Below, piece by piece: positions 2,514 to 61,738 of a DNA stretch of 64,000 nt; the first letter of the stretch is position 1; every line of letters starts with the position of its first letter. Source of the DNA: a virus; the IMG/VR virus record IMGVR_UViG_3300020171_000728, positions 1-64,000 of that record. One strand, 5' to 3'. The notes under the pieces are model-generated. The model searched no databases. It had not been told where the DNA came from and saw only the letters and a list, made by a program, of their open reading frames with translations. The position numbers and the translations under genes were made by a program.

Positions 2514-2518
2514 AATAA

Positions 2519-2588
2519 GCGGGTGGAAGGTATGGTAATCTTATCGGCCTCATAAACCGAATAAATGAGTTCAATTCTCATACCCGCA
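2519..2588 (+). tRNA. tRNA-like gene, anticodon CAT (Met/Ile2-type), non-canonical arms
   Basis: Hand fold: acceptor GCGGGTG/TACCCGC (7 bp, one G-U); T-arm TGAG-TTCAATT-CTCA; anticodon loop with U33, CAT at 34-36, A37; D-arm and the anticodon-stem closing pair are imperfect. Confidence 0.4.
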
Positions 2589-2598
2589 ACATAAAAAT

Positions 2599-39721: not shown

Positions 39722-42484
39722 TTAATTTTTTATTTTTTCTTGAACGACCTTTGATGTCTTTAATTGACTTTTTTTATGTTTTTCTATTATAGCAATTATT
39801 CTATTAGATGTTCGCCCATCCCCAAAAGGATTTTCGCCGAACACAATATTCTTAGAAATAAACTTTTTAATATTTTTTAGGATATTATCCTTTTTTAAAT
39901 CTTTTACTAAAATGCCATAACCTTTCTCTATTAATTCCTGCCTTTCTGTTTCTTTTCTTAAAATAATTACTTTCTTTTTAAATGAGGGGCATTCCTCTAA
40001 AACGCCTCCACTGTCACTTATAACATATTCACAAAATTTCAGATGCCATAGAAAATCTTTATAACTCATTGGGCTAACTGTTTCTAATCCAATCTTCATT
40101 ATCATGTCTTGAACATTTGGATTTGGATGAGCGGGCAATACTACTTTAATTGTTTTTGAAAGTTCTTTTAATGCTAAAAATATTTGCTCCATATCATCTC
40201 CAAAACTTTCTCTACGATGAATTGTTGCTAAAACATATTTTTCTTCGATGGGTCGTTTTTTTGGCAATATTTTTTGAATCATTTTCAGTGCATCAACAAC
40301 TGTGTTACCTACCAAATATGCTCTACCTTGCAAATTTTCATTTTTTAAATTATCAATGGCTTGCTTGGTTGGGGCGAACATAATATCAGCCATTCTGTCT
40401 ATTTGGGTTCTAAACATCTCTTCGGGAAATGGATTATTTTTGTATGTTCGCAATCCAGCCTCAATATGAACTAATGGAATTTTATTAACAAAAGCGACAA
40501 ATGCTCCAGCGAGCGCTGATGATGTATCGCCCTGAACCCAAATCCTATCAAAATTATTTTCTTTAATAATTCTATCCAATTCAATAATACACATTGAAAA
40601 GAATCCTGTCAAACTTTGATTCTCTGTCATTAAATCAAAATTTACATCTGGTTCAATTTCGAAACATTCAAATGCCTCATTAGATAATTCTTTATGTTGT
40701 CCTGTGTGAATAACAAATGGATTCATTTTTAGAATCAGAGGAGCGGATTTGATAATATCGGGTCTTGTTCCAACGATAAAACAATCTTTGTTGTTTTTTT
40801 CTCTCATAACATTTCCTTTTTCAATCCCCTTTGGTCCATCTTTTATATGAGCATTTTTATTTGCCATATTATTTATTTGTGTTCTATAATCTTTATCATC
40901 GGCTGGGTCTAATTTATTAATATTCAATTCTTCAACACAAATATTCCCATTATTTTTAGCCCATTCTGGAATATCAAAGTATATTTTAGATGTTCCATTC
41001 TCTATATGTGGATCTGGTGAAAAATTTGATGGTGATGTTATCCTATATACAGTTTCAATAATAATCATATCAGGCTTATTGTTAATATCATCAATACGAT
41101 CCATTTCTATCGAATAATTTTTATATTTTGAAACAGATTTATTATCATCAATCATATCTAGTAAGCCTATTTCAACACCATCATAAAAAGCTGATATAAT
41201 ATTCGGTGCAGAATATTGGAATTGTGTCCATCCATGTAATAATTTATTATTAGAATATTGACTAATTTTTTCTTTAATTTTTTGTCGTTTAATAACAATG
41301 GCACTTCCACCGACATATTTACTAAAATAAATTTTACTATTTTCAAATTCAATTGATTTTAAATCTTTCATCCATTCTTCAAAATTATTATAACTTTCAT
41401 GCCTGATAGGATGTTTTGCTTGAACAATATCTATATTATTTAAACGCACAACCATTAACAACTCTTTCAACCAATTTTTAGAAACAATCGTATCGTTATC
41501 TACCTTTGCAACATAGGCATCATTGCATGTTAAATTAAAAAATTGGTCCATACTTGCGGCTACTCCTTTATTCTTATGATTAAATATAACCTTAATCTTT
41601 GGATTTTTAATAGTTTTTAACCATTTTTTTGTTGCTTTATTTGACTTATTATCAATGATATAAATCTTAAACTTACCTTCGGTTTTTAATAATGATTTTA
41701 ACGCTATTTTCGTGTAAGCAAGACGGTTATAAACTAAGAACAAGATAGGAATAGTCTTATTATATTTAGAATATTTCTTATATAATTTCATTTTGTTCTT
41801 GTGTATATATTCACCACCCCCACCTATCTCATTTGCTGTTTTACTAACAAAATGATGAATACGGCTAGAAAATATTTCCATTAATTCAAATCCATTTTCC
41901 CATAGACGATACAAATAATCAGTATCTTCATAATAAGCCATTTTAAATCTTTCATCAAAATATCCAACTTTTTTAAAAATATATCTTGGCAAAACAAAAC
42001 AACATCCAAACTTGCTTGTTTTCTTCATTCCATCTACTATTTTACTATTATAAAAATCTTCTGGTATTACATCCCCATCACTTGCGATTGGCGTGGTTAA
42101 CCCAATATTTTTATCTTTGAATGGTTTAATTAGATTTTTCAACCAGTTATCTGAAACAACAATATCATTATTAATAATTGCAATATAATCCGCATTAGAT
42201 GCTTTTAATCCTTGATTCCATGCGGGTCCAACACCTCTATTTGTTTTATTCTTAATATACTTAAATTTAATTTTATTTTGTTCTAAATATTCTTTAATCC
42301 ATTTTTCAGACCCATCTGTGGAATTATTGTCAATAATAATTATCCTAAATAATATTTTGGTGCATTTAATTATACTTTCCAAACATTGTTTTGTATACTC
42401 TAAATTATTTAAAATAGGTATAACAATATCCACATCTTTTTTTATTTCTTTTTTATTCATATAATTACCACAATTTTGGGTCAT
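39722..42484 (-). CDS. multidomain glycosyltransferase: GT2 + GT2 + repeated 55-aa module + UDP-N-acetylglucosamine 2-epimerase (WecB-like)
   Basis: N-terminal VDIVIPILNN...DNNSTDGS (GT2); second domain ILFLVYNRLAYTK...IDNKSN; C-terminal 380 aa with GTRPDIIK..., HTGQH..., HIEAGLRTY... typical of non-hydrolysing UDP-GlcNAc 2-epimerases. Confidence 0.6.
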   Translation of the reverse strand: MTQNCGNYMNKKEIKKDVDIVIPILNNLEYTKQCLESIIKCTKILFRIIIIDNNSTDGSEKWIKEYLEQNKIKFKYIKNKTNRGVGPAWNQGLKASNADYIAIINNDIVVSDNWLKNLIKPFKDKNIGLTTPIASDGDVIPEDFYNSKIVDGMKKTSKFGCCFVLPRYIFKKVGYFDERFKMAYYEDTDYLYRLWENGFELMEIFSSRIHHFVSKTANEIGGGGEYIHKNKMKLYKKYSKYNKTIPILFLVYNRLAYTKIALKSLLKTEGKFKIYIIDNKSNKATKKWLKTIKNPKIKVIFNHKNKGVAASMDQFFNLTCNDAYVAKVDNDTIVSKNWLKELLMVVRLNNIDIVQAKHPIRHESYNNFEEWMKDLKSIEFENSKIYFSKYVGGSAIVIKRQKIKEKISQYSNNKLLHGWTQFQYSAPNIISAFYDGVEIGLLDMIDDNKSVSKYKNYSIEMDRIDDINNKPDMIIIETVYRITSPSNFSPDPHIENGTSKIYFDIPEWAKNNGNICVEELNINKLDPADDKDYRTQINNMANKNAHIKDGPKGIEKGNVMREKNNKDCFIVGTRPDIIKSAPLILKMNPFVIHTGQHKELSNEAFECFEIEPDVNFDLMTENQSLTGFFSMCIIELDRIIKENNFDRIWVQGDTSSALAGAFVAFVNKIPLVHIEAGLRTYKNNPFPEEMFRTQIDRMADIMFAPTKQAIDNLKNENLQGRAYLVGNTVVDALKMIQKILPKKRPIEEKYVLATIHRRESFGDDMEQIFLALKELSKTIKVVLPAHPNPNVQDMIMKIGLETVSPMSYKDFLWHLKFCEYVISDSGGVLEECPSFKKKVIILRKETERQELIEKGYGILVKDLKKDNILKNIKKFISKNIVFGENPFGDGRTSNRIIAIIEKHKKSQLKTSKVVQEKIKN

Positions 42485-43238
42485 TTAAATGTTCTTCACA
42501 CTCTTTTCTAATTTGTTCCTCTGTAATATTATGATGCTGTATAGTCATTCTTTTTTCTAAATTATTTTTACTTTGTCGTTCTTTTCTACCAGCTATTCGT
42601 CTTTCTATTGCAATATCAACATCAACCATTGCCCAATGTGCTCCAAGAAAATTATCAATGGAAATAATAACATCTTTATTTTCTCTATAACGATCATTAC
42701 CTATACCTAAAACAATATTTACTTGAGGTTTAAAAACAATCGGTTTGTTGTATAATGCGTTCATCCCTTCTGTGATATTTGTATCACCATGACACCTTTG
42801 TGTTTTTATTGATAGATTTGCATCTAAATCTGTGTCTGTAATATGCCTATATGTTTGCCACATTTGTGCATATAAAAGATTGCCTTTCTGTTTTGATAAA
42901 AATTCTTTTGGTTCTTCATCTCTACATGGCCATATAAATTCATCTGAATCTACAACATATACCCAATCGCAATCTAATTTCTTTGTGATTTCATTAATTT
43001 TATTTACTTTTAGTATATCATCCATCATATCAGGAAATGTAAAATCTTCAATTTCAACATTAGAATATTGGGAACATATTTCCCTAGTATTGTCATTAGT
43101 ATCCGCATCTAATAATAAGTGTATCTTGTCAACATATTTATAGTGATTCAAAAAGAAAGGAGCTAACTTTTCTTCATTATACCACATTGTTACAATTTCA
43201 ATTTTCATTTGTTTTTTATATCTTTTTTGTTTGCCCAT
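42465..43238 (-). CDS. glycosyltransferase-like protein (GT-A fold, MWYNEE family)
   Basis: IVTMWYNEEKLAPFFLNHY...DADTNDNT resembles GT-A nucleotide-sugar transferases. Confidence 0.35.
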   Translation of the reverse strand: MGKQKRYKKQMKIEIVTMWYNEEKLAPFFLNHYKYVDKIHLLLDADTNDNTREICSQYSNVEIEDFTFPDMMDDILKVNKINEITKKLDCDWVYVVDSDEFIWPCRDEEPKEFLSKQKGNLLYAQMWQTYRHITDTDLDANLSIKTQRCHGDTNITEGMNALYNKPIVFKPQVNIVLGIGNDRYRENKDVIISIDNFLGAHWAMVDVDIAIERRIAGRKERQSKNNLEKRMTIQHHNITEEQIRKECEEHLNDPKLW

Positions 43239-43774
43239 ACCAAAGAAAATACAGGTTCAGATATTTTATTAAATGTTTCATCAATGGCTTTTTTAACACC
43301 ATCATGTTTTATATTTTCTCTATAGTATTTATCATAATCATGAAAGGCTATTGTGCCATTTTCTTTTAATTTGGGTAAACATACCCTAATATCTTCTTTA
43401 ATGCTTTTATAATCATGCATACCATCTATAAAAATAAAATCAAATTTAATATCTATTTGTGGAACAATTTCTTCTGATTTGCCGATATATGTTGTAATGT
43501 TTTTCCAACCTAAAATATTAGATCTAAATTGTTCAAGTGTTGTAAATTTATCTAATTGAGTTATTCCCTCTCCATCTGCCATAAATGTATCAACACTATA
43601 AACTTGTTTAGCAACTTCGGCCATACATATAGTTGTTTTCCCCATAAAACTACCTATTTCCAAACACACTTTATCCATTGCTAATTCTTGTAATTGAATA
43701 CATTCTTTTTTATCATAAATAAAGCCATGTATTTCTTCCCATTTTCTTCTTTTGATTGTATATTTTTCATTCAT
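43205..43774 (-). CDS. class I SAM-dependent methyltransferase (TylF/Methyltransf_24-like)
   Basis: CLEIGSFMGKTT...FIFIDGMHDY...GTIAFHDY. Confidence 0.55.
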   Translation of the reverse strand: MNEKYTIKRRKWEEIHGFIYDKKECIQLQELAMDKVCLEIGSFMGKTTICMAEVAKQVYSVDTFMADGEGITQLDKFTTLEQFRSNILGWKNITTYIGKSEEIVPQIDIKFDFIFIDGMHDYKSIKEDIRVCLPKLKENGTIAFHDYDKYYRENIKHDGVKKAIDETFNKISEPVFSLVWANKKDIKNK

Positions 43775-44654
43775 ATTTTTTATCCTTTTTAATATCTTCC
43801 CTATAATTACTAGGGTCCCATGTTAATCTATTTTTTTCTATTTCTTTAATTGTTAATTTTTTATCATAAATTTCTATATCTTTTTCTGATAATCTTGGTA
43901 ATTTATGTTTTTTAAATAATGTTAAATTTCCTTGAGAAAATTTTTCTTTTTTTGTTTTTAAATATTCCCTTTCTATTGGTATAATCATTCCACAATATTT
44001 ACAATATCTATTTACTTGATCTTGAAAATCTTTAGGTTCTTTTTTCCACCAATCTTTTTCAACTGGATAACCACCGGGGCCATCTAAAATAGAATCTATC
44101 GCATATGCTATTTCACAGAAAAATGCACCTTTTGGAGAAATAGTTGGACACCATGTTTTTTGTACCCAACAATCATCAATAAGTTGTTTCCTATATTTTT
44201 TATCTTTTATAACATCTTTGATAGCTATTGTCATGGGTTGATGCCTACATGTGCCTTGTTGATAGTCATTATGTTCATTGTAAGCAGTAAAACTAAATGT
44301 TTGAGCAATTAATTCTTTATACTCCTCATATTTAATACCTCCTGTAGTAAATAACTCAAATTTCTTTTTAAGTCCCATTTCTTGTATAATCAAACATATT
44401 TCCTTAAATTGTGGATGTAATGTTGGTTCACCGCCAATAATTCCAATTCTACTTGGCCATCCTTCCAATGAATCAAGAGCTTTTTTAAAGAAATCTAAAT
44501 CCATAAAAAATCTTTGGTCTTGTCTAGTGTGTCTAATATACCGCGAGCAATATATACAATCCTTATTGCATATATTTGTTATATCAATTTGACACAACCA
44601 TGCTTTTTGAATTGGTTTCATATTATTTATTGTATAAATTATCAAAATATTCAA
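43767..44654 (-). CDS. radical SAM enzyme with SPASM-like C-terminal Cys cluster
   Basis: ITNICNKDCIYCSRY contains the CxxxCxxC radical SAM motif; GGEPTLHP glycine-rich SAM-binding motif; C-terminal C...C...CKYCG cluster. Confidence 0.6.
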   Translation of the reverse strand: MNILIIYTINNMKPIQKAWLCQIDITNICNKDCIYCSRYIRHTRQDQRFFMDLDFFKKALDSLEGWPSRIGIIGGEPTLHPQFKEICLIIQEMGLKKKFELFTTGGIKYEEYKELIAQTFSFTAYNEHNDYQQGTCRHQPMTIAIKDVIKDKKYRKQLIDDCWVQKTWCPTISPKGAFFCEIAYAIDSILDGPGGYPVEKDWWKKEPKDFQDQVNRYCKYCGMIIPIEREYLKTKKEKFSQGNLTLFKKHKLPRLSEKDIEIYDKKLTIKEIEKNRLTWDPSNYREDIKKDKKYE

Positions 44655-45279
44655 ATTCTTTTAAATTTAATATTTCTTTACGATTTATATCTAAATCCTT
44701 ATAAGTCATATTATCAATATCATTAATTGAATAATTAAGCATATCTTCTGGCTTACCTCTTGTAATAACTCCAACTCCATAATCTTCATTCACAACAAAA
44801 ATATTTAAATCATTTTGTGTCGACCTTAATCTAATAATAGTTTTCCACACATTACCACACCAAAGACCATTCCAACCATCCATTTTTTCTGCTTTTTCTA
44901 TTGGTATAGTCGCACTAACTTTTGTAGTAGGGCTACAATCATGTATAATAATTACACCACCATTATTTAGGTATTGTAAACAATTATTAAAATCTTTTAA
45001 TGATTGTTTATATGTATGCATTCCATCAATAAAAGCAACATCTATGCCATTCTTAATACAAACATCAGAATGTTCTTCAAAAAAAGTATCACTAGTCATC
45101 TTAAAAAACTGACTTGTTATATTATCACATAAATGAGCTATTTGAGACTTTGGATCTATAGCTATTTTTCTTTTTATTTTGATAGGAAAGAAAGTTATAC
45201 CACCTTCTACACCAACTTCTATGTATGTTTTTGCCTTTATTCTATCTATTACTGATTGTATAATATCTAATCTATTCAT
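44623..45279 (-). CDS. class I SAM-dependent methyltransferase (TylF/Methyltransf_24-like)
   Basis: YIEVGVEGG...VAFIDGMHTY...VIIIHDC. Confidence 0.5.
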   Translation of the reverse strand: MNRLDIIQSVIDRIKAKTYIEVGVEGGITFFPIKIKRKIAIDPKSQIAHLCDNITSQFFKMTSDTFFEEHSDVCIKNGIDVAFIDGMHTYKQSLKDFNNCLQYLNNGGVIIIHDCSPTTKVSATIPIEKAEKMDGWNGLWCGNVWKTIIRLRSTQNDLNIFVVNEDYGVGVITRGKPEDMLNYSINDIDNMTYKDLDINRKEILNLKEFEYFDNLYNK

Positions 45280-45332
45280 TTTGTTTTATGTTTTTAAATA
45301 TTGTATGTTTAGAAAATGTAATCATAATAATT

Positions 45333-46127
45333 TTATTTACAATATAAATTCATTCCTTCTTTATATTTTTTAAAATTCTCTAAAATTAAATAGTGAGATT
45401 CATCTTTCATTTTTCTAACATTTTGATATAAATACTTACCACTATTATTAATCAATTCCTTATAATCTTCTGGACAATTTGGGAATATTTCACAATGATA
45501 CATTTTAACACCACAATCAGAATGTCTGCAAATATATTTAAATTTAAAACCAGATAGTTCAACTCTTTCTTTGTAATCAAGGTCTTCCCATAAAAAAGGA
45601 CCATACTCTTCGTTCCAATAACCTATCTTATTAATAACTTTTCTACTAATCATCATAACACAACCAGTGAAGGTTTCACATAAACCTATTCCGTTTACAC
45701 TCTCCATAACTTTTCTTCTATTTGCCATAGTAACAAACCCCAAATCTAAAGATGTTAAAACATTTTCATATTTTATAAGCCATTCTTTATCTACAAAAAC
45801 AACATCATCATCTACTTTTATAACATAATCACCTGAACATTGTCTGAATATATGATTGAGATTTTTGGGATAATGATTATCTTTTAAATAATATACCTTT
45901 AATCCTTTAATTTCTTTTAAAAAGTTTAAGTCTTCTTCTTTGGGATAATACATAACATCTCTAAATCGTTCATCATCCACTACGCCCATATGTATATTAA
46001 CTATTCTATCACCAAAATTACATTTCAAAAGTGATTTTATACATTCTCTAAAAAATGGGTATCTTTGAATAGGTGCTACTATTACAATATCATGAGTTGT
46101 TTTTTTTAATGACATTTTATTTATCAA
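45333..46127 (-). CDS. GT-A-fold glycosyltransferase candidate
   Basis: HDIVIVAPIQRYPF...IKVDDDVVF (DxD) architecture. Confidence 0.4.
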   Translation of the reverse strand: MINKMSLKKTTHDIVIVAPIQRYPFFRECIKSLLKCNFGDRIVNIHMGVVDDERFRDVMYYPKEEDLNFLKEIKGLKVYYLKDNHYPKNLNHIFRQCSGDYVIKVDDDVVFVDKEWLIKYENVLTSLDLGFVTMANRRKVMESVNGIGLCETFTGCVMMISRKVINKIGYWNEEYGPFLWEDLDYKERVELSGFKFKYICRHSDCGVKMYHCEIFPNCPEDYKELINNSGKYLYQNVRKMKDESHYLILENFKKYKEGMNLYCK

Positions 46128-46836
46128 GAATAAGTTTCCATCCTCTTTTTATATATTCATCGAAAAGATTAAAACGTTCTTTATTGTGTTCTTTATTTAC
46201 AAGCCAGGATGCCACAGAATCACATCCATATTCCATTGCTTTTTTAGGGTCTGACCCCCATAAAGACTTATTTTTAATCGGATGTGGCGGAACATATGTC
46301 GGAATATTACCAAAAATCTGTGCATTAGCTGAAAGTTGTATATCTTCACCATTATTATGTTCAAGTATATCGTCAAACCACATATATTTTAGATTTTCTG
46401 TTCTTAAAAACCATGAATGTCCTCCAAAATCCACAAGAATTTCATTGTCTGATGGGTCTCCCCAACCTGGACAATGTTGTTTATTACTTTCTATATCAAC
46501 TATTCTACCATTTGTCACGCAAATACAATCGTGTTTTTTGATAGTATCAATGCAATTTAAATGCCAATCCTTACCAGGTACAGTGTCATCATCATAAAAT
46601 GCCACATATTCAGTATCCACCAATAGGCCAATAGCAAATCTTAAATGGAATTTCATATTCTTTGAAGAATATATTACATGGTCTATTTCCTTAGGATAAT
46701 TAAATTTTACTCCACCTTCATTTTGAACAACAATGATTTTTGAAGAAATAGTTTGATTCTTAATAGCTTCAAGTTGTTCTTGAAAATATTCTGGTCGTTT
46801 GTATGTTTGTAAAATAGTAGTTATATTTATTTTCAT
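46117..46836 (-). CDS. GT-A-fold glycosyltransferase candidate
   Basis: INITTILQTYKRPEY...AFYDDDT (DxD). Confidence 0.4.
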   Translation of the reverse strand: MKINITTILQTYKRPEYFQEQLEAIKNQTISSKIIVVQNEGGVKFNYPKEIDHVIYSSKNMKFHLRFAIGLLVDTEYVAFYDDDTVPGKDWHLNCIDTIKKHDCICVTNGRIVDIESNKQHCPGWGDPSDNEILVDFGGHSWFLRTENLKYMWFDDILEHNNGEDIQLSANAQIFGNIPTYVPPHPIKNKSLWGSDPKKAMEYGCDSVASWLVNKEHNKERFNLFDEYIKRGWKLILDK

Positions 46837-46838
46837 AT

Positions 46839-47807
46839 TTAATTCATATAAATATCATCCCATTTATATCCACTTTTTCCTGTTTCAATAACATTTAAAA
46901 GATTTTTAACTAGTGGCTTGTAATCAAAATATCTAAGAATAAATGCTTGCCCTCTTTTTGCAATCATTTTTCTTTCTCTTTCATTTTTAAGATAATATTG
47001 TATTTTTTCTTCCATTTCTTCAACTGTATCAAACCAATCTAAATGATAACCTCTTTTAAATATTTTGTCTATATTCCCAAAATTATGACACAAATAAAAT
47101 GTTCCACATGCCATATAGTTCCCTAGTCGGTCAGAAGACCATTTTACTGTATGGTTGAAACTATTAACACCAATTCCGATTTTTGTGCTATTTATCGCAT
47201 ATAAATATTCTGGGTCTCCTAGCCAACCAGACAAACCATACACCCTAGCATTTTTATATTTCAAAAGTTTATCAATCACTTCATTTCTCAAGTCATTATT
47301 CCCTGTAGATTTAGTCCCAGTCCATAAAATATCAGATTCCCATTCTGGCAAAGGTTTAATATCTTTATAATAATCAGAATCTGTAAAAGCGATTATAGAA
47401 CAAACTCCTTTCATATTAGGAAGTAAATGTTTTTTAAGATAATCTCCACCGAATGTTCCAAAAAAATAATCAATATGTTTATTATGTGCTAAGTCATGTT
47501 CTGTTGGTTCGATGCGAACATCTGCCGCCCATTTTACAAAAACTGCACCAGGGTGCATACTCCTTAACTGTTCTATCGTTTCTGGTAATATTCTCTCACA
47601 TTTTCCAAACCAAAAAATATCTGGCTTAATTTGCTCAGATATTTCTAATAATCTTTGATTAGGTTCAGGCTCAGCTCTGTAATCAATTCTTGTTACTTTA
47701 TATCCATTGGCTTCAAGCCCATTCGCAAAAACTTGGTCACCGCAATAAGGGCTTGCCTGATGAATATGTCTTGGGTTGTATACCCCGACTGTAATAGCTT
47801 TTTTCAT
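46839..47807 (-). CDS. glycosyltransferase-like protein (possibly GT-B/CgeB-like)
   Basis: 322 aa, Rossmann-like alternating pattern; weak. Confidence 0.3.
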   Translation of the reverse strand: MKKAITVGVYNPRHIHQASPYCGDQVFANGLEANGYKVTRIDYRAEPEPNQRLLEISEQIKPDIFWFGKCERILPETIEQLRSMHPGAVFVKWAADVRIEPTEHDLAHNKHIDYFFGTFGGDYLKKHLLPNMKGVCSIIAFTDSDYYKDIKPLPEWESDILWTGTKSTGNNDLRNEVIDKLLKYKNARVYGLSGWLGDPEYLYAINSTKIGIGVNSFNHTVKWSSDRLGNYMACGTFYLCHNFGNIDKIFKRGYHLDWFDTVEEMEEKIQYYLKNERERKMIAKRGQAFILRYFDYKPLVKNLLNVIETGKSGYKWDDIYMN

Positions 47808-47820
47808 ACTTTAAAAGTAT

Positions 47821-48087
47821 TTATCGATAGATTACATATGCCTTAGGCGATGTGCCTGTAAGCGTTGCGTATAAACCAGTTGCCGCTTTAACCCCTGGTT
47901 GTGTTATTGTAAAAATTTCAGTTGTATTGGCAGCAGCTTTTAATGTTGCTAAAACACTACCGCTTCCATCAGAACTATCATCTACTGCCACGCTGGCAGC
48001 GTCAGAACCAGCTGTAAGAATTATGGAAGATAAACGTGTATTCCCAGTAACTACAAGTCCAGATGTTGTTTTTTCTACACTAATCAT
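47821..48087 (-). CDS. small Ser/Thr/Ala-rich protein
   Basis: 88-aa ORF, beta-rich composition. Confidence 0.25.
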   Translation of the reverse strand: MISVEKTTSGLVVTGNTRLSSIILTAGSDAASVAVDDSSDGSGSVLATLKAAANTTEIFTITQPGVKAATGLYATLTGTSPKAYVIYR

Positions 48088-48751
48088 TTTTATTCTCTCC
48101 TTTCATTAACTCAATTTGTTTTAAAAAATCTACTTGATTTATTATCGGTGGATCGCCTATGTGCCCGATTTCTATAGATGGATCGCAATAAATTTTATAA
48201 CCCCCCTTTTTGGCTTTTTGACAGAATCTCATATCCACCGACCAATGTTTTCCTTCTGAATCATAATCCGTCCAAAACCATGGATATTTTATTTTTTTGA
48301 AAACTTCTGTTTTAATAAGTAGAACAGAAGAACCTATCGCATCAACTTCGCAAAATTTATTTGGAAGAATCGGGAAATACTGTTTATCTCTTTTGGCGTA
48401 TACGCATGGAGCAAAATCTCCTCTACGTTTAAATGCCAATACTCCTATAATGTCTTTGTCATGTTCATTTAATCTAAAATAAACATCTGGCGGAATTGTC
48501 ATATCGTCATCGATCATTAAAATCTTTTCATACTCGTAATCAGTGTCTTCTAATACTTTTTGAACAATTTGATTACGAGCAAAATCTATCATTACTCTTG
48601 GCAACCAAACAACTTTTGTATTTTCAGGAATTCCTATTGTCATTAATGAACTAGCAAATCTATAATCTACTGTTCCTAATGTTGGTATTCCTATAACTAA
48701 TTTTGATTTTATTTTTTGTCTCATAGACTGTTTGTCTTGAGGTCTCTCCAA
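48080..48751 (-). CDS. GT2 family glycosyltransferase
   Basis: LVIGIPTLGTVDYRF...ILMIDDDMTIPP (DxD). Confidence 0.5.
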   Translation of the reverse strand: MERPQDKQSMRQKIKSKLVIGIPTLGTVDYRFASSLMTIGIPENTKVVWLPRVMIDFARNQIVQKVLEDTDYEYEKILMIDDDMTIPPDVYFRLNEHDKDIIGVLAFKRRGDFAPCVYAKRDKQYFPILPNKFCEVDAIGSSVLLIKTEVFKKIKYPWFWTDYDSEGKHWSVDMRFCQKAKKGGYKIYCDPSIEIGHIGDPPIINQVDFLKQIELMKGENKND

Positions 48752-48838
48752 TCTTATAACACAACCTATAATAAGAAGTAGGTTAGCGTGTTATAAGATA
48801 ACTCAAGGATTATTTAATAACTATTAATCACTAAAAGA

Positions 48839-49465
48839 TTATGGAGTCGATGCAAAACCAAGTCTCCAGTTACCCCAAGCAACAAATCCACGCCAGTCGC
48901 AACCATAATACCATTTCTTCCTTAAGAAGGCTGATTCCGTATCACCAATAAGGTTTTGGAATTCAGGTGCCCTTCTCATTTGAAGAATAATTGGATTCAT
49001 GACATGCGTAGTATCAAATAGATACCAAGCGTCTGCATCTGTCAAATAAGGACTGATAACTAAGTCAAGAGAACCCTTCAACACGTTTATAGCCAATTTT
49101 GTTGTAGTTGTTCCTTCTTCTGGATAATAAGTGGACTTAAGGATTTCCTTAGCTTCCCACTCATTAGCAGGAGCGACAACTAATACATTTGGTCTAACGT
49201 GAGCTGGCTTTCCCTTGTCATCTTTGAAGTTAACCATTGCCGTGATAGCTGTTTGAAGAGCTGTTGCACTCAAGGCACTGCTACCAAGATTAGATTGTGT
49301 TCCTGAATCTCCTTCACTGTGATTAGTTGCGTAAAAAGCTTTAGCGTCATAACAACTAACTGTCTTATTCTCAAAGTGAGAACCAGAACTACCAGTTGTA
49401 TTTTCGCCTTGCAGTATTAAACCAAAAACCAATTCATCAAAGAATCTTTTGGCTTCAACAGCCAA
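48839..49465 (-). CDS. major capsid protein, exon 2 (Mu gpT-like C-terminal part)
   Basis: 208-aa ORF in the capsid position after the protease/scaffold and decoration genes; continues the N-terminal fragment at 50257..50640 across an endonuclease-containing gap; the true 5' boundary is unknown. Confidence 0.5.
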   Translation of the reverse strand: MAVEAKRFFDELVFGLILQGENTTGSSGSHFENKTVSCYDAKAFYATNHSEGDSGTQSNLGSSALSATALQTAITAMVNFKDDKGKPAHVRPNVLVVAPANEWEAKEILKSTYYPEEGTTTTKLAINVLKGSLDLVISPYLTDADAWYLFDTTHVMNPIILQMRRAPEFQNLIGDTESAFLRKKWYYGCDWRGFVAWGNWRLGFASTP

Positions 49466-50256
49466 TTCTTTAACACGGATTTTGATTTGTCCATATTGCC
49501 TATTGTCTCATGCCTGGACATTTCTGCCAGGACTCCGATTACTCGGAGGTTCAGATTATATCTTACACTCAAGTTTATATTCAGGATAAACCTTGAGTAT
49601 TTCTGCGCTTAATGGTGATTTACTTAACATTTGATACTTTAAATCAATTTTATAATACATTGATGGTGGAATAAATGGTTTAATAAGTTGAATAAACTTT
49701 AAACCCTCTTTTACTCCACAATATAAAGCAAATTGATTTCTAAGTTTGAAAATGTGCCATGAAATGTCCCATTTTCTTTCGAAATAATTTTGAATTAGAT
49801 TTTGTTCTTTCAGTGTGAATCCACCTGTATAAAGCAATATTTTTCTATCACCTTTTTTACCGTTTTTTCTATCACTTCTTGAAAATCTAAAACTTCCATC
49901 ATCCATATACCAAATAGCTAATGAGAGAGGAGTTAATTTGGAAAGTATTCTTTGGTCTATTTTCTTTTTACCAGATTTATAGAACACATTCCTGCGTAAA
50001 TGAGTAAAGTATGGATATACTGTAGTTCTAAACCCAACTTGTTCAAATCTCTTATCATTAAAGCCACAACCAACAGTTCTTTTAAATTGTTTAGTTTTCC
50101 ACAATTTTGAAACTATCGTATGTAGCCATTCAGAGTATTCTTTGTGCTGAATACACTGAATATGTTCGAGTCTTGAATTTCTATTTTTATTAGGTAGAGG
50201 ACTAAGATAACCATCACCCATTAAAATGCCATAGGCAATTTCCTCTTTCGTAAATC
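49466..50256 (-). other. candidate group I intron interrupting the major capsid gene
   Basis: About 790 bp between the two capsid ORF fragments, carrying a free-standing double-motif LAGLIDADG ORF; exact splice boundaries not determined. Confidence 0.4.
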
Positions 50257-50260
50257 TCAT
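49556..50260 (-). CDS. double-motif LAGLIDADG homing endonuclease (intron-encoded)
   Basis: Two LAGLIDADG motifs, ILMGDGYL and IWYMDDGSF; 234 aa; its start codon overlaps the stop of the capsid exon-1 ORF (ATATGA). Confidence 0.6.
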   Translation of the reverse strand: MRFTKEEIAYGILMGDGYLSPLPNKNRNSRLEHIQCIQHKEYSEWLHTIVSKLWKTKQFKRTVGCGFNDKRFEQVGFRTTVYPYFTHLRRNVFYKSGKKKIDQRILSKLTPLSLAIWYMDDGSFRFSRSDRKNGKKGDRKILLYTGGFTLKEQNLIQNYFERKWDISWHIFKLRNQFALYCGVKEGLKFIQLIKPFIPPSMYYKIDLKYQMLSKSPLSAEILKVYPEYKLECKI

Positions 50261-50640
50261 ATAATCGTTGCACCTTCCCCCCGCCAGGGGCTTGGCTCAG
50301 AGTAATCCCGAAGGACTTCCTCTGAATTCACAGAATTTATAGACGAGCAATAATAAGGCTTCTCGTCTTCAATCGCATCTCTATCAACTGAGATTGTGCT
50401 TTCCCAGCTGTAGTTTGATACAGTAAAGTAGTATTCAGTCAAATCTTCCTCTTTTCTTTCATCTTTCCATTCTTTCATTTTCGGAACGGCTCCAAGCCAT
50501 GGGTATGTTTCTTCAGACTTTTTGGATTCTAACGTGGTAGTAATCCTGTCATAGTCAGCAGTTGCTGTCTCATACGCGCCCATGAACTCAGTTCTCATTC
50601 CAGCTGTTAATAGTTTGGGGATATCGCCTTTTGTAATCAT
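50257..50640 (-). CDS. major capsid protein, exon 1 (Mu gpT-like N-terminal part)
   Basis: ETYPWLGAVPKMKEWKDER matches the conserved Y.WLG..P.mreW..eR block of Mu-like major head subunits; the ORF stops right at the endonuclease start. Confidence 0.5.
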   Translation of the reverse strand: MITKGDIPKLLTAGMRTEFMGAYETATADYDRITTTLESKKSEETYPWLGAVPKMKEWKDERKEEDLTEYYFTVSNYSWESTISVDRDAIEDEKPYYCSSINSVNSEEVLRDYSEPSPWRGEGATII

Positions 50641-51053
50641 TATTTCGTGGCTAGATCAATTCTGATACGAACAGTTGAGCTACTTGGGACATCTACGACA
50701 TATCCTGCCAAAATCGAGTTGGTGCTTGATGCAGCAACCGTTTGGTCATCTTCGATATACATAGCTGTTCCGATATCCGTTTGTGATGCTGAAGCCTTTG
50801 TGAATACATAGGTTCCAGTTTTATACAAACGAACAGCTTTAGCTCCGTCTGTTGCGCTACCTGAATTGTCTGATTTTTCTACTGATACGCCTAAAAACGT
50901 ATAAGCTCCGGCATCGGAGCCAGGTGAGGCATATCCAGTCCCTAAATCAACAACTAATGCTCCCTTATAGATAGTAGCACTTCCTTTGACTGGGTAACTT
51001 ACAATTTCTCCGTCTTGTCTCTTAGTGTCATAATTAGCACTAAGTGCGGTCAT
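50640..51053 (-). CDS. capsid decoration/stabilisation protein candidate (DUF2190-like)
   Basis: 137 aa, Gly/Ala/Ser/Thr-rich beta protein between the scaffold and capsid genes. Confidence 0.35.
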   Translation of the reverse strand: MTALSANYDTKRQDGEIVSYPVKGSATIYKGALVVDLGTGYASPGSDAGAYTFLGVSVEKSDNSGSATDGAKAVRLYKTGTYVFTKASASQTDIGTAMYIEDDQTVAASSTNSILAGYVVDVPSSSTVRIRIDLATK

Positions 51054-51073
51054 ATATTTATATTGTAATGAAC

Positions 51074-53167
51074 TTAAAACAAAGTTGATTTATCTTCTTT
51101 AGCCTTATTAGCTGCCTTTCGAGCATATTTCCATGCTTCACGAGTTTGATTTTCATCTAAACCCATGTTGCCATAGAAATCTTTAACATCCTGAGGAACA
51201 CCTTTATTCTTTTTCTTTTTCAACTTAGCAATTTCTTGTGTTCCTTTTTCCTCAAAATCAACTATTTTAGGCTGTTTATCTAAGAAAGAAGTTAAAATCT
51301 TTTTGATGTCGACCTGCTCATCTCCGAGATTTACCTCTGACTTCGATGTTAAGAGCGAAATTACGACTTCTTTTTGAGCGGGGACTACTTTCCCTTTCCC
51401 AAGATATTCATAATACACCCTTTCGGCTTCAGCAAGATCAACTTTATGCTCACTGACTACCGCTTCAGAACGATTTTTAAGTTCAGCATCGGACTTTACT
51501 CCTAATGCTTTACTTATTTTGTCTTCCAAAGATTTTACTTCGACTTTAATGTCTTTACTTATTGTTTTACTTTTTTTAATTTTTTTCATTGTTTTATTTT
51601 CTTTTGTCTTTTCATCGACCTTTTTTTCTACTTTATTTTCACTTACATCCTTTTTTAATTCTTCCTTACATATTTTAGCAGCTTCAGCCATGGTCTTACC
51701 ATCTTTCATTTCTCTTCCGATACATTTGCTATATGCAGATTTTTTAACAACTTTCTTTTTCTTTTTCTTTTTTGGTTTTTCTTCTTGTTCTTCTTCCTGT
51801 CCCTCTTCATCCTGCTTTTCTATTTTCTTTTTTTCTTTCTTTTCTTCTTTATTCTCTTCTTTCTTTTTCATTTTTTTCTTTTTTCTTTCTTCTTCTAATT
51901 CTAATTTTATTTCTTTGGTAATTTGTTTTTTCAAATCATTTTTAAATAATTCTATCATATCTTCTGTTGTTGGTTTTGTATCAGACAAAGAAATAATATT
52001 TTTATCACTAAATTCTTCTGACAATTCCGTGAATCCACTCATTCCTTTAATATATGGTTCAGCAACCAATGCGGCATGAAGTAATGTTGGACCTACTTGT
52101 TCCCCACTTTTTTTATTCATATAATCTTCATCAATACTAGCCGAAACACATTTGATTAAACCATCTCTGATTTTTTGAGCAACTTTTTCATCTTTAATCT
52201 CACAAATTATGTCAAGACCATCTTCTGTAGGAATTAGGTCAACAACCTCTCCAGCATTTTTAATTGGGTCAGAAGTATGTGAAAGAGGAACATAAACATG
52301 TTCAATTGTTTTATCTTTAAAATTCTTAGCAATTGTGTTTATAGAATCTTTATTGATATCTAATATTCCACCATCTGCATCCCAATGATACCACTTACCA
52401 GTTTTTAGAAGTTGCTTTCTAAATTTATTTCCATCCAATTCAATAGTATCAGTATTATTAATCTCATAAACATTTTCGGATTTATCTGACAATCCAAGTA
52501 TATTAGATTTGATATCTTTTATTTTCTTTACATTTTTAATTTTATTTTTTTTCATTTCTTCTAATTTAATAGCTTTTTCAACATACCAGTTAATTGCCCT
52601 AGCTTTTACATTAGCAGGAATAGAAACTAATGATGCTTCAAAAAGCTCTAATCTTGTTATTTTTCTAACAAATTTATCTGGGTTCATAAACATCCGATAT
52701 CTCAAGCTACCCTCATCTTCATCTTTATCGCCTTCTTTCTTTTTCTTTGGATTAATTTCTTCTATAGCTTCTTTAATAACTTTTCCTTTAATAGAAAATT
52801 TAGAGATAATTCCTTCTTGAACTTTCGTCCATATTTTACCCTCAGATTTTGATAATTTAATTTTAACCCAAAGACCATTCTTATCAAAATCAGTTTCTAA
52901 TATTTTACCAATAGGGCGATCCATATTATGGTTAAATAAAACTGTAGAATATTTTAAAAGGTCATTTTTTGAATGCTTAATAGCCTCATCTGTAATTATT
53001 GTATTACCTGAGTCAATATCTGAAGTCATTATATATCCCTCAATAATATAATCACCTTTTTGTATTTTTTTATCTTTCTTAACAACTTTTATGCTTTTTT
53101 CAACACTTTCAATACTGTGATAATTTTTCACAATATCAGCATCAAAGCTAAATTGTATAATTTTCAT
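51074..53167 (-). CDS. prohead protease - scaffold fusion with long K/E-rich linker
   Basis: N-terminal about 250 aa protease-like region; central EEERKKKKMKKKEENKEEKKEKKK charged coiled-coil; C-terminal helical scaffold-like region; position between portal and capsid. Confidence 0.45.
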   Translation of the reverse strand: MKIIQFSFDADIVKNYHSIESVEKSIKVVKKDKKIQKGDYIIEGYIMTSDIDSGNTIITDEAIKHSKNDLLKYSTVLFNHNMDRPIGKILETDFDKNGLWVKIKLSKSEGKIWTKVQEGIISKFSIKGKVIKEAIEEINPKKKKEGDKDEDEGSLRYRMFMNPDKFVRKITRLELFEASLVSIPANVKARAINWYVEKAIKLEEMKKNKIKNVKKIKDIKSNILGLSDKSENVYEINNTDTIELDGNKFRKQLLKTGKWYHWDADGGILDINKDSINTIAKNFKDKTIEHVYVPLSHTSDPIKNAGEVVDLIPTEDGLDIICEIKDEKVAQKIRDGLIKCVSASIDEDYMNKKSGEQVGPTLLHAALVAEPYIKGMSGFTELSEEFSDKNIISLSDTKPTTEDMIELFKNDLKKQITKEIKLELEEERKKKKMKKKEENKEEKKEKKKIEKQDEEGQEEEQEEKPKKKKKKKVVKKSAYSKCIGREMKDGKTMAEAAKICKEELKKDVSENKVEKKVDEKTKENKTMKKIKKSKTISKDIKVEVKSLEDKISKALGVKSDAELKNRSEAVVSEHKVDLAEAERVYYEYLGKGKVVPAQKEVVISLLTSKSEVNLGDEQVDIKKILTSFLDKQPKIVDFEEKGTQEIAKLKKKKNKGVPQDVKDFYGNMGLDENQTREAWKYARKAANKAKEDKSTLF

Positions 53168-61157: not shown

Positions 61158-61209
61158 AGCAATTAGATAAAGCAATTAAGTGCAGCAATTAAGAGTAGCA
61201 ATTATACTC
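61158..61209 (+). repeat. four tandem 13-bp units each starting AGCAATTA
   Basis: AGCAATTAGATAA AGCAATTAAGTGC AGCAATTAAGAGT AGCAATTATACTC. Confidence 0.8.
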
Positions 61210-61738
61210 TTGGATTTTCTAATATCCATCCGACAACGAAAGAAGCAATGTCTTTTACTTCGACATGATTCAATCTAAACCATTCGCCTCTTACTCTTTG
61301 ATTTTTGTAATTGTTGTGCAAATAGCGTTCTAATGATTGTGGGTCAGGTAACATTGTGCTAAATATCAATCGTATTCTAAATGGATTTCCTGTTTGCATT
61401 GCGGAAATACGGCTTCTTACATCTGTAGCAAAACCAATTTTATAATAATCACTTTTACATTGAATAATATAAATAAAATCTCTTTTTAATTCAGAATGTC
61501 CAATTTTCAATTGATTTCTTCTATAAGCAATTCGGCAAGCATCATTGCAGAATAAGCGGGCTTTCTTTCCAATTATTTGTTTTATTTCTTTATTACATTG
61601 TAAACATTTACTTACGGTTAAATTGCTTTTCTTTGGAACGGTAAGACGATTGTATTTGATACGGCAATTAGTTGAACAAAACTTTGATGTTGCCCTAATT
61701 GGTTCGTATTCTTTCCCACATTGTAAACATTTATTCAT
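61202..61738 (-). CDS. GIY-YIG (T5orf172/MUG113-type) nuclease domain protein with two N-terminal zinc ribbons
   Basis: CLQCGK...CSTNC and CLQCNK...CNDAC; then FIYIIQCKSDYYKIGFATDVRSRISAMQTGNP (GIY-YIG T5orf172 signature). Confidence 0.55.
   Translation of the reverse strand: MNKCLQCGKEYEPIRATSKFCSTNCRIKYNRLTVPKKSNLTVSKCLQCNKEIKQIIGKKARLFCNDACRIAYRRNQLKIGHSELKRDFIYIIQCKSDYYKIGFATDVRSRISAMQTGNPFRIRLIFSTMLPDPQSLERYLHNNYKNQRVRGEWFRLNHVEVKDIASFVVGWILENPRV

What the first reader, a model, noticed from the sequence alone, without database searches (positions are those of the whole stretch)
48839..50640. Major capsid gene (Mu gpT-like) apparently split by an intron carrying a double-motif LAGLIDADG homing endonuclease
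Seen: the N-terminal capsid fragment (50257..50640) contains the ETYPWLGAVPKMKEWKDER block and stops exactly where a 234-aa ORF with two LAGLIDADG motifs begins (ATATGA overlap). The capsid reading frame resumes as a 208-aa ORF about 790 bp downstream (48839..49465). Established: LAGLIDADG enzymes are the typical cargo of group I introns, and phage structural genes are known intron targets. Inference: a self-splicing intron in an essential virion gene.
Basis: partly seen in the sequence, partly recalled or inferred. Interest (0 to 1): 0.65.

Follow-up and report, generated by a model that had tools for sequence, protein, structure and literature searches.

The report
Self-splicing intron inside phage capsid gene
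The major capsid gene of this phage is interrupted by an 863-base group I intron that carries its own I-SceI-like homing endonuclease; this is a known kind of selfish element in a new host gene family, with one oddity: its 5' splice site lacks the almost universal U·G pair.

Summary
Two Mu gpT-like capsid fragments flank a 234-aa double-motif LAGLIDADG ORF on the minus strand. Uninterrupted relatives (82-93% identical) place an 863-nt insert at 50361..49499. Removing it restores a 312-aa capsid reading ...DRDAIEDE|QYGQIKIRV..., identical there to the closest intact homologues. The insert has a group I core: P1 and P10 guide, P3-P9.1, the P3/P7 pseudoknot and a terminal G. Across seven independent alleles, 94.8% of cells pair and 15 of 44 pairs show compensatory changes (0 of 500 shuffles; slid controls 26-46%). 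Rfam misses it in a wide scan and gives two sub-threshold half-hits in a narrow one, because the ORF sits between P7 and P3'. ORF-less relatives score 62-83 bits. Exon 2 is under strong purifying selection (dN/dS 0.05), and identity to a relative falls away from the junction as homing would leave it. Capsid-gene group I introns are already documented (LittleE, Tuc2009), so this is a new member of a known kind. The open point is that the window and two close relatives have no U at the 5' splice site in any in-frame reading, whereas six sister alleles have canonical U·G. Splicing itself was not tested.

The parts
50362..50640 (-). Capsid exon 1 (93 codons, ATG 50640 to GAG 50364..50362). The last 7 nt, AGACGAG (50368..50362), form the 5' strand of P1.
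   Evidence: Pfam PF10124; alignment to intact capsids; empty-site alignment; coordinates.
49499..50361 (-). Group I intron, 863 nt. The boundary is ambiguous by 1 nt because of a G on each side. An alternative 5' boundary lies 3 nt upstream, at 50364.
   Evidence: Empty-site comparison with L006, L007 and L008; Rfam half-hits; covariation; fold z-score -3.2.
50341..50352 (-). Internal guide sequence UAUUG-CUCGUCU. CUCGUCU (50347..50341) pairs with the exon 1 end AGACGAG (P1). UAUUG (50352..50348) pairs with the exon 2 start CAAUA (P10).
   Evidence: A 12-nt contiguous complement to the ligated junction was reached in about 1 of 20,000 shuffles.
50261..50335 (-). 5' half of the ribozyme core: P3 5' strand UUCUGUG (50335..50329), P4 (50325..50320 with 50302..50297), P5 (50316..50305), P6 and P6a (50296..50272), J6/7, and P7 5' strand GAUUAU (50266..50261).
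   Evidence: Rfham-independent and Rfam evidence: Rfam RF00028 hit 50395..50070, 27.1 bits; RNAalifold; pair counts; coordinates.
49556..50260 (-). Homing endonuclease ORF, 234 aa, monomeric double-LAGLIDADG and I-SceI-like. The AUG directly follows the P7 5' strand and overlaps the stop of the exon 1 read-through frame (ATGA). The last ~17 codons encode P3', P8 and J8/7, and the stop UAA lies inside P7'.
   Evidence: Pfam PF03161, E 3.9e-34; PDB I-SceI 1r7m, E 2.6e-11; relatives 63-64% identical in the same intron of other capsid genes.
49499..49607 (-). 3' half of the ribozyme core: P3' CGCAGAA (49607..49601), P8 (49600..49594 with 49571..49565), J8/7 AAGAU, P7' AUAAUC (49559..49554), P9 CUCCGA-GUAA-UCGGAG (49548..49533), P9.1 CCUGG/CCAGG (49531..49513), and a tail ending in the terminal G (49499).
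   Evidence: Rfam RF00028 hit 49666..49532, 23.6 bits; covariation; coordinates; identical 3' end in L201.
48839..49498 (-). Capsid exon 2 (219 codons plus stop). It begins CAAUAUGGA (Q-Y-G).
   Evidence: dN/dS is 0.049 against L201.

Best explanation
The Mu gpT-like major capsid gene is interrupted by a mobile group I intron. Shown: the insert lies exactly where intact relatives have contiguous coding sequence. It contains a guide sequence complementary to both exon ends. It has a conserved P3-P9.1 core with the P3/P7 pseudoknot, supported by compensatory substitutions. It ends in G. Inferred: after transcription the RNA folds, an external guanosine attacks the 5' splice site held in P1, the exons are ligated after the terminal G, and a 312-aa capsid protein is translated. 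The intron encodes an I-SceI-like double-LAGLIDADG endonuclease between P7 and P3'. Its Shine-Dalgarno-like stretch (P6 3' strand and J6/7) and AUG (at the end of P7) are buried in the folded ribozyme, and its 3' end encodes P3', P8, J8/7 and P7'. Translating the ORF and folding the ribozyme should therefore be mutually exclusive. Inferred: during co-infection the enzyme cuts intronless capsid alleles at the exon junction, and repair copies the intron together with adjacent exon sequence. The most likely splice junction is GAG|CAA (or GA|G...G|GCAA, which gives the same mRNA).
For: Fragments contiguous on intact capsids. Clean empty site in L006-L008. In-frame 312-aa product whose junction region is identical to the closest intact homologues P0017 and P0018. 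A 12-nt P1+P10 guide. Rfam group I half-hits flanking the ORF at E 1e-4 and 1e-3, with ORF-less relatives sharing the 3' signature scoring 62-83 bits against a threshold of 50. RNAalifold recovers P1, P3, P4, P5, P8, P9 and P9.1 unaided. Pair counts: three alleles give 97.2% paired and 14 of 49 compensatory; seven alleles give 94.8% paired and 15 of 44 compensatory; 0 of 500 shuffles match either; slid controls give 26-47%. The ORF-deleted fold has z = -3.2. The same intron and endonuclease occur in at least eight further gpT-capsid contigs (L016, L019, L085, L108, L141, L174, L200, L201), giving seven full-length alleles with the window plus the two partial contigs L085 and L201. Exon 2 has dN/dS 0.049 at dS 0.84 within the intron-bearing lineage. 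The window and L085 differ by compensatory changes in P4 and P6a. 90 nt around the 3' junction are identical to L201, then identity falls to about 80-85%. The endonuclease matches PF03161 and I-SceI.
Against: No transcript data were examined, so splicing is inferred. Rfam's curated threshold is not reached in the window (27.1 and 23.6 bits against 50), and a 3.5-kb scan found nothing. No in-frame reading puts the conserved U at the last exon position: the cleavage-site pair would be G-C, A-U or C-G. In the Anabaena intron the -1 position must be a pyrimidine opposite a guide G, and reversing the pair abolishes the reaction (PMC12355055). The exon 1 reading frame stays open through P1-P7, so ribosomes could disturb folding.
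Confidence: 0.88

Rival explanations
1. The intron is real, but it splices at the site homologous to its sister alleles. The 5' cut falls after GAC (50365|50364), with a C-G pair opposite the conserved guide G, and the 3' cut after AGG. This gives a 311-aa capsid reading ...IED|QYG..., one residue shorter.
For: The guide motif YUC-G-UC aligns with the six canonical alleles, so the window's G corresponds to their wobble G. The intron would then begin GAG, as the sisters begin GAA or GAG. Experiments on the Anabaena intron tolerate Y at -1 opposite G but not a purine. The product is still in frame.
Against: It deletes a residue from a stretch that is identical (DRDAIEDEQYGQIK) in the closest intact homologues, and whose length is conserved down to 30% identity. 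The exon part of P1 would be only 4 bp, against 7 in the sisters. P10 would sit 3 nt from the cleavage-site nucleotide instead of next to it. At the DNA level it requires a replacement rather than a pure insertion relative to L007.
Confidence: 0.3
2. It is a decaying intron. The ribozyme has lost its U·G pair and splices poorly or not at all, so this capsid allele is a pseudogene or belongs to a defective phage.
For: No canonical U·G solution exists in the window, and there is no transcript evidence. The window sub-lineage is represented by single contigs.
Against: Exon 2 has dN/dS 0.049 at dS 0.84 between two intron-bearing alleles. The window and L085 differ by compensatory rather than disruptive changes in P4 and P6a. 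The same unusual junctions recur in three independent samples. The endonuclease ORF and all neighbouring virion genes are intact.
Confidence: 0.08
3. It is not an intron. A free-standing homing endonuclease gene split the capsid gene into two separately translated polypeptides, or the insert is an intein or a group II intron.
For: Phage genes split by free-standing endonuclease genes are known (my own knowledge). The wide Rfam scan was negative.
Against: The structured, covarying RNA core and the guide sequence would have no role in that case. Exon 2 has no plausible start codon or ribosome-binding site at its true beginning. Stop codons and a frame change exclude an intein. There was no group II hit, and only about 160 nt lie outside the ORF.
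Confidence: 0.03

Closest known systems
Group I introns in phage major capsid genes: mycobacteriophage LittleE gp13 (RT-PCR verified) and lactococcal phage Tuc2009 (PMC3706429)
   Same: A self-splicing-type intron of about 0.8 kb interrupts the most highly expressed virion gene. It carries a homing endonuclease gene, and closely related phages have the uninterrupted gene.
   Different: The host capsid family here is Mu gpT-like. The endonuclease is LAGLIDADG and co-oriented with the gene, whereas LittleE has an oppositely oriented HNH. LittleE has U at the last exon position; the window does not. No splicing data exist here.
I-SceI and its host intron (yeast mitochondrial 21S rRNA group I intron); Pfam LAGLIDADG_2
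   Same: A monomeric enzyme of about 235 aa with two LAGLIDADG motifs, encoded inside a group I intron. It matches by sequence (E 2.6e-11 to PDB 1r7m; PF03161 E 3.9e-34).
   Different: The PDB match covers only the C-terminal half. The host is a phage protein-coding gene rather than organellar rRNA. The ORF sits between P7 and P3' and overlaps core helices. The target site is unrelated.
ORF-less phage group I introns sharing the AAGAUAUAGUCYGA-N-CUCCNAGUAAUNGGAG signature (IMG/VR loci L021, L023, L028 in an HK97-type capsid gene; L026 in the large terminase)
   Same: The same J8/7-P7'-P9 sequence and the same core. A small extra hairpin lies between P7 and P3', where the window carries its ORF. 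All interrupt virion genes. They pass Rfam RF00028 at 62-83 bits.
   Different: They have no internal ORF (L021, L023 and L028 have an HNH ORF upstream instead), different host genes, and are about 210-255 nt long.
Sister alleles of the same intron in gpT capsid genes (L016, L019, L108, L141, L174, L200)
   Same: The same host gene, an endonuclease 63-64% identical, and the same core helices with compensatory changes.
   Different: They splice between the D and E codons with a canonical U·G pair and a short P1 loop. The window sub-lineage (with L085 and L201) has the junction one codon downstream at the DNA level, no U·G pair, and a 14-nt P1 loop that supplies a 5-bp P10.

Membership tests
Group I intron (Rfam RF00028) | P1 helix formed by an internal guide sequence and the end of the 5' exon | tested here: met
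   AGACGAG (50368..50362) pairs with CUCGUCU (50347..50341), 7 of 7 Watson-Crick. P1 covaries among the alleles.
Group I intron (Rfam RF00028) | U at the last exon position forming a U·G wobble pair with the guide | tested here: not met
   No U·G helix of 5 bp or more can be drawn in the window. The candidate pairs are G-C, A-U or C-G. Six sister alleles do have U·G.
Group I intron (Rfam RF00028) | Terminal guanosine (omega G) at the 3' end, plus P10 pairing with the 3' exon | tested here: met
   The intron ends ...AAUAGG (49499). CAAUA of exon 2 pairs with UAUUG directly next to the P1 guide.
Group I intron (Rfam RF00028) | Conserved core P3-P9 including the P3/P7 pseudoknot, supported by covariation | tested here: met
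   Seven alleles give 94.8% paired and 15 of 44 pairs compensatory, with 0 of 500 shuffles as high and slid controls at 26-46%. P3 and P7 are 100% paired. The three-allele test gives 97.2%.
Group I intron (Rfam RF00028) | Score at or above Rfam's gathering threshold (50 bits) | tested here: not met
   Two separate half-hits score 27.1 and 23.6 bits, and a wider scan found nothing. The 649-nt ORF segment between P7 and P3' splits the match. ORF-less relatives score 62-83 bits and L024 scores 53.
Group I intron (Rfam RF00028) | Guanosine-dependent self-splicing | not testable with these tools
   This needs in vitro transcription and splicing, or RT-PCR.
LAGLIDADG homing endonuclease (Pfam PF03161, I-SceI type) | Significant match to the family profile | tested here: met
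   118.5 bits against a cut-off of 25, E 3.9e-34, covering profile positions 2-168 of 168. I-SceI chains match at E 2.6e-11.
LAGLIDADG homing endonuclease (Pfam PF03161, I-SceI type) | Two LAGLIDADG motifs, each with a catalytic acidic residue | tested here: met
   GILMGDGY (residues ~11-18) and IWYMDDGS (residues ~116-123), read directly from the translation.
LAGLIDADG homing endonuclease (Pfam PF03161, I-SceI type) | Site-specific cleavage of the intronless allele (homing) | not testable with these tools
   Only indirect support is available: a co-conversion-like identity gradient against L201 and patchy presence among close relatives.
Mu-like gpT major capsid protein (Pfam PF10124) | Full-length, contiguous match of the joined exons to the family and to annotated major capsid proteins | tested here: met
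   Both fragments hit PF10124. The joined protein aligns in one piece over 99-100% of its length to capsid proteins of FP_Mushu, Villandry, Casadabanvirus and others. 243 homologues score E<1e-30.

The most novel reading that the evidence does not exclude
The window, L085 and L201 represent a natural, functional group I intron sub-lineage whose 5' splice site has no U·G wobble pair. Cleavage would occur at a fully Watson-Crick P1 after a purine (G-C or A-U), one codon downstream of the site used by its sister introns. That would be a case of both splice sites sliding while the mRNA stays unchanged. It would be a rare natural exception to one of the most conserved rules of group I catalysis, occurring in a gene that needs very efficient splicing.
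Probability: 0.4. Interest if true: 0.6.

Novelty: new member of a known kind. Interest (0 to 1): 0.4.

Why it matters
Annotation pipelines would call this capsid gene as two fragments plus a hypothetical protein. Recognising the intron restores a single 312-aa major capsid protein. It also shows that Mu gpT-like capsid genes of uncultured phages are a recurrent target of mobile introns: at least nine contigs, the window included, carry this intron, and one relative carries a second intron at another site. The family gives a natural comparison between canonical U·G alleles and alleles without it in the same ribozyme. That makes the role of the cleavage-site wobble pair, and the possibility of splice-site sliding, directly testable. 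The endonuclease is a candidate new rare-cutting specificity of the I-SceI type.

Tried and rejected
- **Rfam on 48000..51500 at E<=1 and on the whole window at gathering threshold:** no intron hit. Only a 981-nt scan gave the two half-hits.
- **blastn of the region against GenBank phages:** no match.
- **Endonuclease search in IMG/VR by peptide patterns:** only one distant locus. An exact 22-mer from J6/7-P7 gave nothing.
- **P3' placed directly after P7 (UAAAUU with GAUUUA):** rejected. It is not conserved in L016 or L019, whereas CGCAGAA, just before P8, covaries at three positions.
- **An 11-bp long-range helix inside the ORF (UUAAUGGGUGAU with AUCACCAUUAA):** not conserved in the sister alleles, so treated as chance.
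- **Rfam's own P1 (UCAGUUGAU with GCGAUUGAA):** rejected, because it lies entirely in exon sequence that intronless alleles share.
- **Alternative 5' splice sites after a U (AUU|, GCGAU|, CCU|):** rejected. Either no guide complement exists, or the product loses or replaces the conserved EDE residues.
- **Automated P1 survey with fixed geometry:** informative only for the 79 of 123 loci with at least 6 of 7 positions paired. The non-U·G calls other than the window and L085 were not verified.
- **Exon 1 dN/dS against L085:** meaningless, because L085 has a second insertion within exon 1.
- **Literature search for natural non-U 5' splice sites:** found nothing on natural exceptions, only the Anabaena mutagenesis study.
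Full report
**1. The observation**

On the minus strand, the ORF listing gives three abutting ORFs:

| ORF | Length | Pfam family |
|---|---|---|
| 50640..50257 | 127 aa | Mu-like_gpT, E 4.9e-22, profile positions 4-87 |
| 50260..49556 | 234 aa | LAGLIDADG_2, E 3.9e-34, full-length |
| 49465..48839 | 208 aa | Mu-like_gpT, E 4.8e-29 |

The ATGA stop/start overlap and both LAGLIDADG motifs (GILMGDGY and IWYMDDGS) are visible in the sequence. Upstream lie a cement-like protein, a prohead protease/scaffold fusion and a portal protein. Downstream lies a block of glycosyltransferases. The setting is a phage head-gene module.

**2. The fragments are two halves of one gene**

A hypothetical joined protein aligns by tblastn as a single piece over 99-100% of its length to annotated major capsid proteins of many phages, including FP_Mushu, Villandry and Casadabanvirus. 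A multiple alignment shows that homology in the first ORF stops at ...DRDAIEDE (residue 93). It resumes at QYGQIKIRVKELAVEAK, upstream of the TTG chosen by the ORF finder.

IMG/VR holds uninterrupted capsid genes 82-93% identical to the joined protein (L006, L007, L008). At the DNA level these read ...GCGATT GAA GAY GAN CAR TAT GGA... without a break. The window has the same sequence interrupted between GAAGACGAG and CAATATGGA.

The insert is 863 nt, at 50361..49499. Removing it gives an open 312-aa frame of 93 + 219 codons. Of 243 homologues with E<1e-30 in the 5.8-billion-protein collection, nearly all are intact proteins of about 312 aa. The closest, P0017 and P0018, read DRDAIEDEQYGQIKIRVKELA, which is identical to the predicted spliced product.

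**3. The insert is a group I intron**

- **Guide sequence.** Ten nucleotides into the insert lies UAUUGCUCGUCU, the exact complement of the ligated junction AGACGAG|CAAUA. This is P1 plus P10 on one guide sequence. A junction-spanning complement that long appeared in about 1 of 20,000 shuffles.
- **Rfam.** RF00028 found nothing in a 3.5-kb scan or in the whole window. When only the insert was searched, it gave two half-hits. One covers P3-P6 and the R-like element GGUGCAACGAUUA (27.1 bits, E 1.2e-4). The other covers P8, the S-like element AAGAUAUAAUCU and P9 (23.6 bits, E 1.3e-3).
- **Homologous copies.** The endonuclease has relatives 63-64% identical (P0002-P0004). All lie in gpT capsid genes split in the same way (L016-L019). 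A 20-nt core pattern retrieved further alleles (L085, L108, L141, L174, L200). A fragment search retrieved L201.
- **Unbiased fold.** On ORF-deleted constructs, RNAalifold recovered P1, P3, P4, P5, P8, P9 and P9.1 without guidance.
- **Pair counts on my full model, including the pseudoknotted P7:**

| Alignment | Cells paired | Pairs with compensatory change | Shuffles as high | Slid controls |
|---|---|---|---|---|
| 3 alleles | 97.2% | 14 of 49 | 0 of 500 | 31-47% paired, 0-3 compensatory |
| 7 alleles | 94.8% | 15 of 44 | 0 of 500 | 26-46% paired, 2-5 compensatory |

P3 is 100% paired with three covarying positions. P7 is 100% paired, and the window's GAUUA/UAAUC is a double change from the GACUA/UAGUC of the others.

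- **Thermodynamics.** The ORF-deleted RNA folds at -74 kcal/mol against -58.7 ± 4.8 for shuffles, z = -3.2.
- **Positive control.** ORF-less phage introns sharing the window's J8/7-P7'-P9 signature score 62-83 bits on RF00028, above the 50-bit threshold. In L021, Rfam itself places an insertion between P7 and P3'.

The window falls below the Rfam threshold because about 650 nt of ORF sit at that position.

**4. Anatomy (coordinates)**

| Element | Window coordinates (minus strand) |
|---|---|
| P1 | 50368..50362 with 50347..50341 |
| P10 guide | 50352..50348 |
| J1/3 | AUAAA; there is no P2 |
| P3 | 50335..50329 with 49607..49601 |
| P4, P5, P6, P6a | 50325..50272 |
| P7 | 50266..50261 with 49559..49554 |
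| P8 | 49600..49565 |
| P9 | 49548..49533 |
| P9.1 | 49531..49513 |
| Terminal G | 49499 |

The endonuclease AUG (50260) directly follows the P7 5' strand. A purine-rich GGGGGAAGGUG stretch (P6 3' strand and J6/7) lies about 10 nt upstream. The last ~17 codons encode P3', P8 and J8/7, and the stop codon lies inside P7'. I infer that folding of the ribozyme and translation of the ORF exclude each other.

The exon 1 frame runs 34 codons into the intron, through P1-P7, and stops at the ATGA overlap. This may couple endonuclease translation to capsid translation on unspliced RNA. The feature is not conserved: L016 stops earlier, and L019 is an in-frame fusion.

**5. The gene is functional and the intron appears mobile**

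Between the window and L201, both of which carry the intron, exon 2 has dS 0.84 and dN 0.041, a ratio of 0.049. The window and L085 differ in P4 and P6a by compensatory changes. Both the protein and the ribozyme are therefore under selection.

The last 51 nt of the intron plus the first 38 nt of exon 2 are 100% identical between the window and L201. Identity then falls to about 80-85%. That is the gradient homing with co-conversion would leave, although functional constraint on the target site could contribute to it. The endonuclease's closest solved relative is I-SceI.

**6. The anomaly**

Six alleles have a textbook 5' splice site. The exon ends ...GA(N)GAU and is followed by G. The U pairs with a guide G that lies 7 bp from the P1 base. 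The intron ends UUG, and exon 2 begins GAR/GAU-CAA-UAY-GGA.

The window has exon ...GAC-GAG, guide CUCGUCU, a 14-nt P1 loop, an intron ending ...AAUAGG, and exon 2 starting CAA-UAU-GGA. L085 shares the 5' side and L201 shares the 3' side. No canonical U·G helix can be drawn. Three readings are in frame:

| Reading | Junction | Cleavage-site pair | Product |
|---|---|---|---|
| (i) | GAG\|...GG\|CAA | G-C | IEDEQYG, 312 aa |
| (iii) | GA\|G...AG\|GCAA | A-U | same mRNA as (i) |
| (ii) | GAC\|GAG...GG\|CAA | C-G | IEDQYG, 311 aa |

Readings (i) and (iii) are favoured by four points. The product matches the closest intact homologues and the family-wide length of this motif. The insert is a pure insertion relative to L007. 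The 7-bp exon pairing is like that of the sister alleles. P1 and P10 are contiguous on the guide sequence.

Reading (ii) is favoured by two points. The guide (YUC-G-UC) and the intron start (GAG) align with those of the sisters. Experiments on the Anabaena intron require a pyrimidine at -1 opposite G, and reversing the pair abolished the reaction (PMC12355055).

I rate (i)/(iii) at about 0.55, (ii) at about 0.3, and poor or no splicing at about 0.1. Only cDNA sequencing and mapping of the intron's 5' end can decide.

**7. Comparison with what is known, and novelty**

Group I introns with homing endonucleases are well documented in phages, including in capsid genes. LittleE was verified by RT-PCR and N-terminal sequencing, and the same paper cites Tuc2009 (PMC3706429). 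LAGLIDADG enzymes occur in phages, often in inteins (PMC10448857).

This is therefore a new member of a known kind. The host gene family (Mu gpT-like capsid) is new for this element, and the intron belongs to a lineage that also interrupts HK97-type capsid and terminase genes in uncultured phages. Two features go beyond the ordinary: the position of the ORF between P7 and P3', overlapping the core, and the absence of the U·G pair in a sub-lineage that is still under selection.

**8. Verdict**

The finding is supported, with the boundaries corrected. Interest is moderate (0.4). The only route to a higher score is experimental confirmation that this ribozyme cleaves efficiently at a site that is neither U nor a wobble pair.

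Noticed in passing
L085:150-1100 (homologous site in the window ~50497..50453, intact): The closest relative's capsid gene carries a second insertion of about 0.95 kb between ...SEETYPWL and GAVPKMKEW.... It encodes a different double-LAGLIDADG ORF (IAGLFDAEGWF and LMGFWEGNGSA). The gpT capsid gene can therefore hold two introns. The window has this site uninterrupted.
   Followed up: partly
window 49460..49550 compared with L201:1-120: The last 51 nt of the intron and the first 38 nt of exon 2 are 100% identical between the window and L201, while the rest of exon 2 is about 80-85% identical (dS 0.84). This looks like a co-conversion tract from homing.
   Followed up: partly
window 61202..61738 (-): A 178-aa ORF has two N-terminal Cys-rich repeats and a C-terminal YIIQCKSDYYKIGFA...RVRGEWF motif that resembles GIY-YIG/T5orf172 nucleases. 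It may be a free-standing homing endonuclease gene.
   Followed up: no
window 39722..48751 (-): A run of glycosyltransferase-like genes lies directly downstream of the capsid gene (phrog_2456, phrog_841 and others; a 920-aa multi-domain protein at 39722..42484). L016 likewise has sugar-nucleotide metabolism genes after its capsid gene. This may point to glycosylation of the virion or the host surface.
   Followed up: partly
L021:3186-3440, L028:8353-8607, L023:1599-1845, L026:8992-9200: ORF-less group I introns with the same J8/7-P7'-P9 signature interrupt an HK97-type capsid gene (with an HNH endonuclease ORF just upstream) and a large terminase gene in IMG/VR contigs. They score 62-83 bits on RF00028.
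   Followed up: partly
window 50361..50257 (-): The exon 1 reading frame stays open for 34 codons through P1-P7 of the intron and ends in an ATGA overlap with the endonuclease start. In L019 the frames are fused into a 361-aa product. This may allow translational coupling, or interference of ribosomes with ribozyme folding.
   Followed up: no
window 51074..53167 (-): A 697-aa ORF combines an N-terminal Peptidase_S78 prohead protease domain with a long, highly charged lysine- and glutamate-rich region. It is probably a protease-scaffold fusion.
   Followed up: no
window 2518..2590 (+): A single tRNA-Met (CAU) gene, found by both ARAGORN and Rfam.
   Followed up: no
window 49575..49600 (-): Relative to its sister alleles, the window's P8 region has a 12-nt insertion (four extra codons, LECK, in the endonuclease C-terminus). 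The insertion supplies a new 3' strand (CUUGAGU) for P8, replacing a mutated one (CCUGAAU). It looks like a repair of the helix within dual-coding sequence.
   Followed up: no
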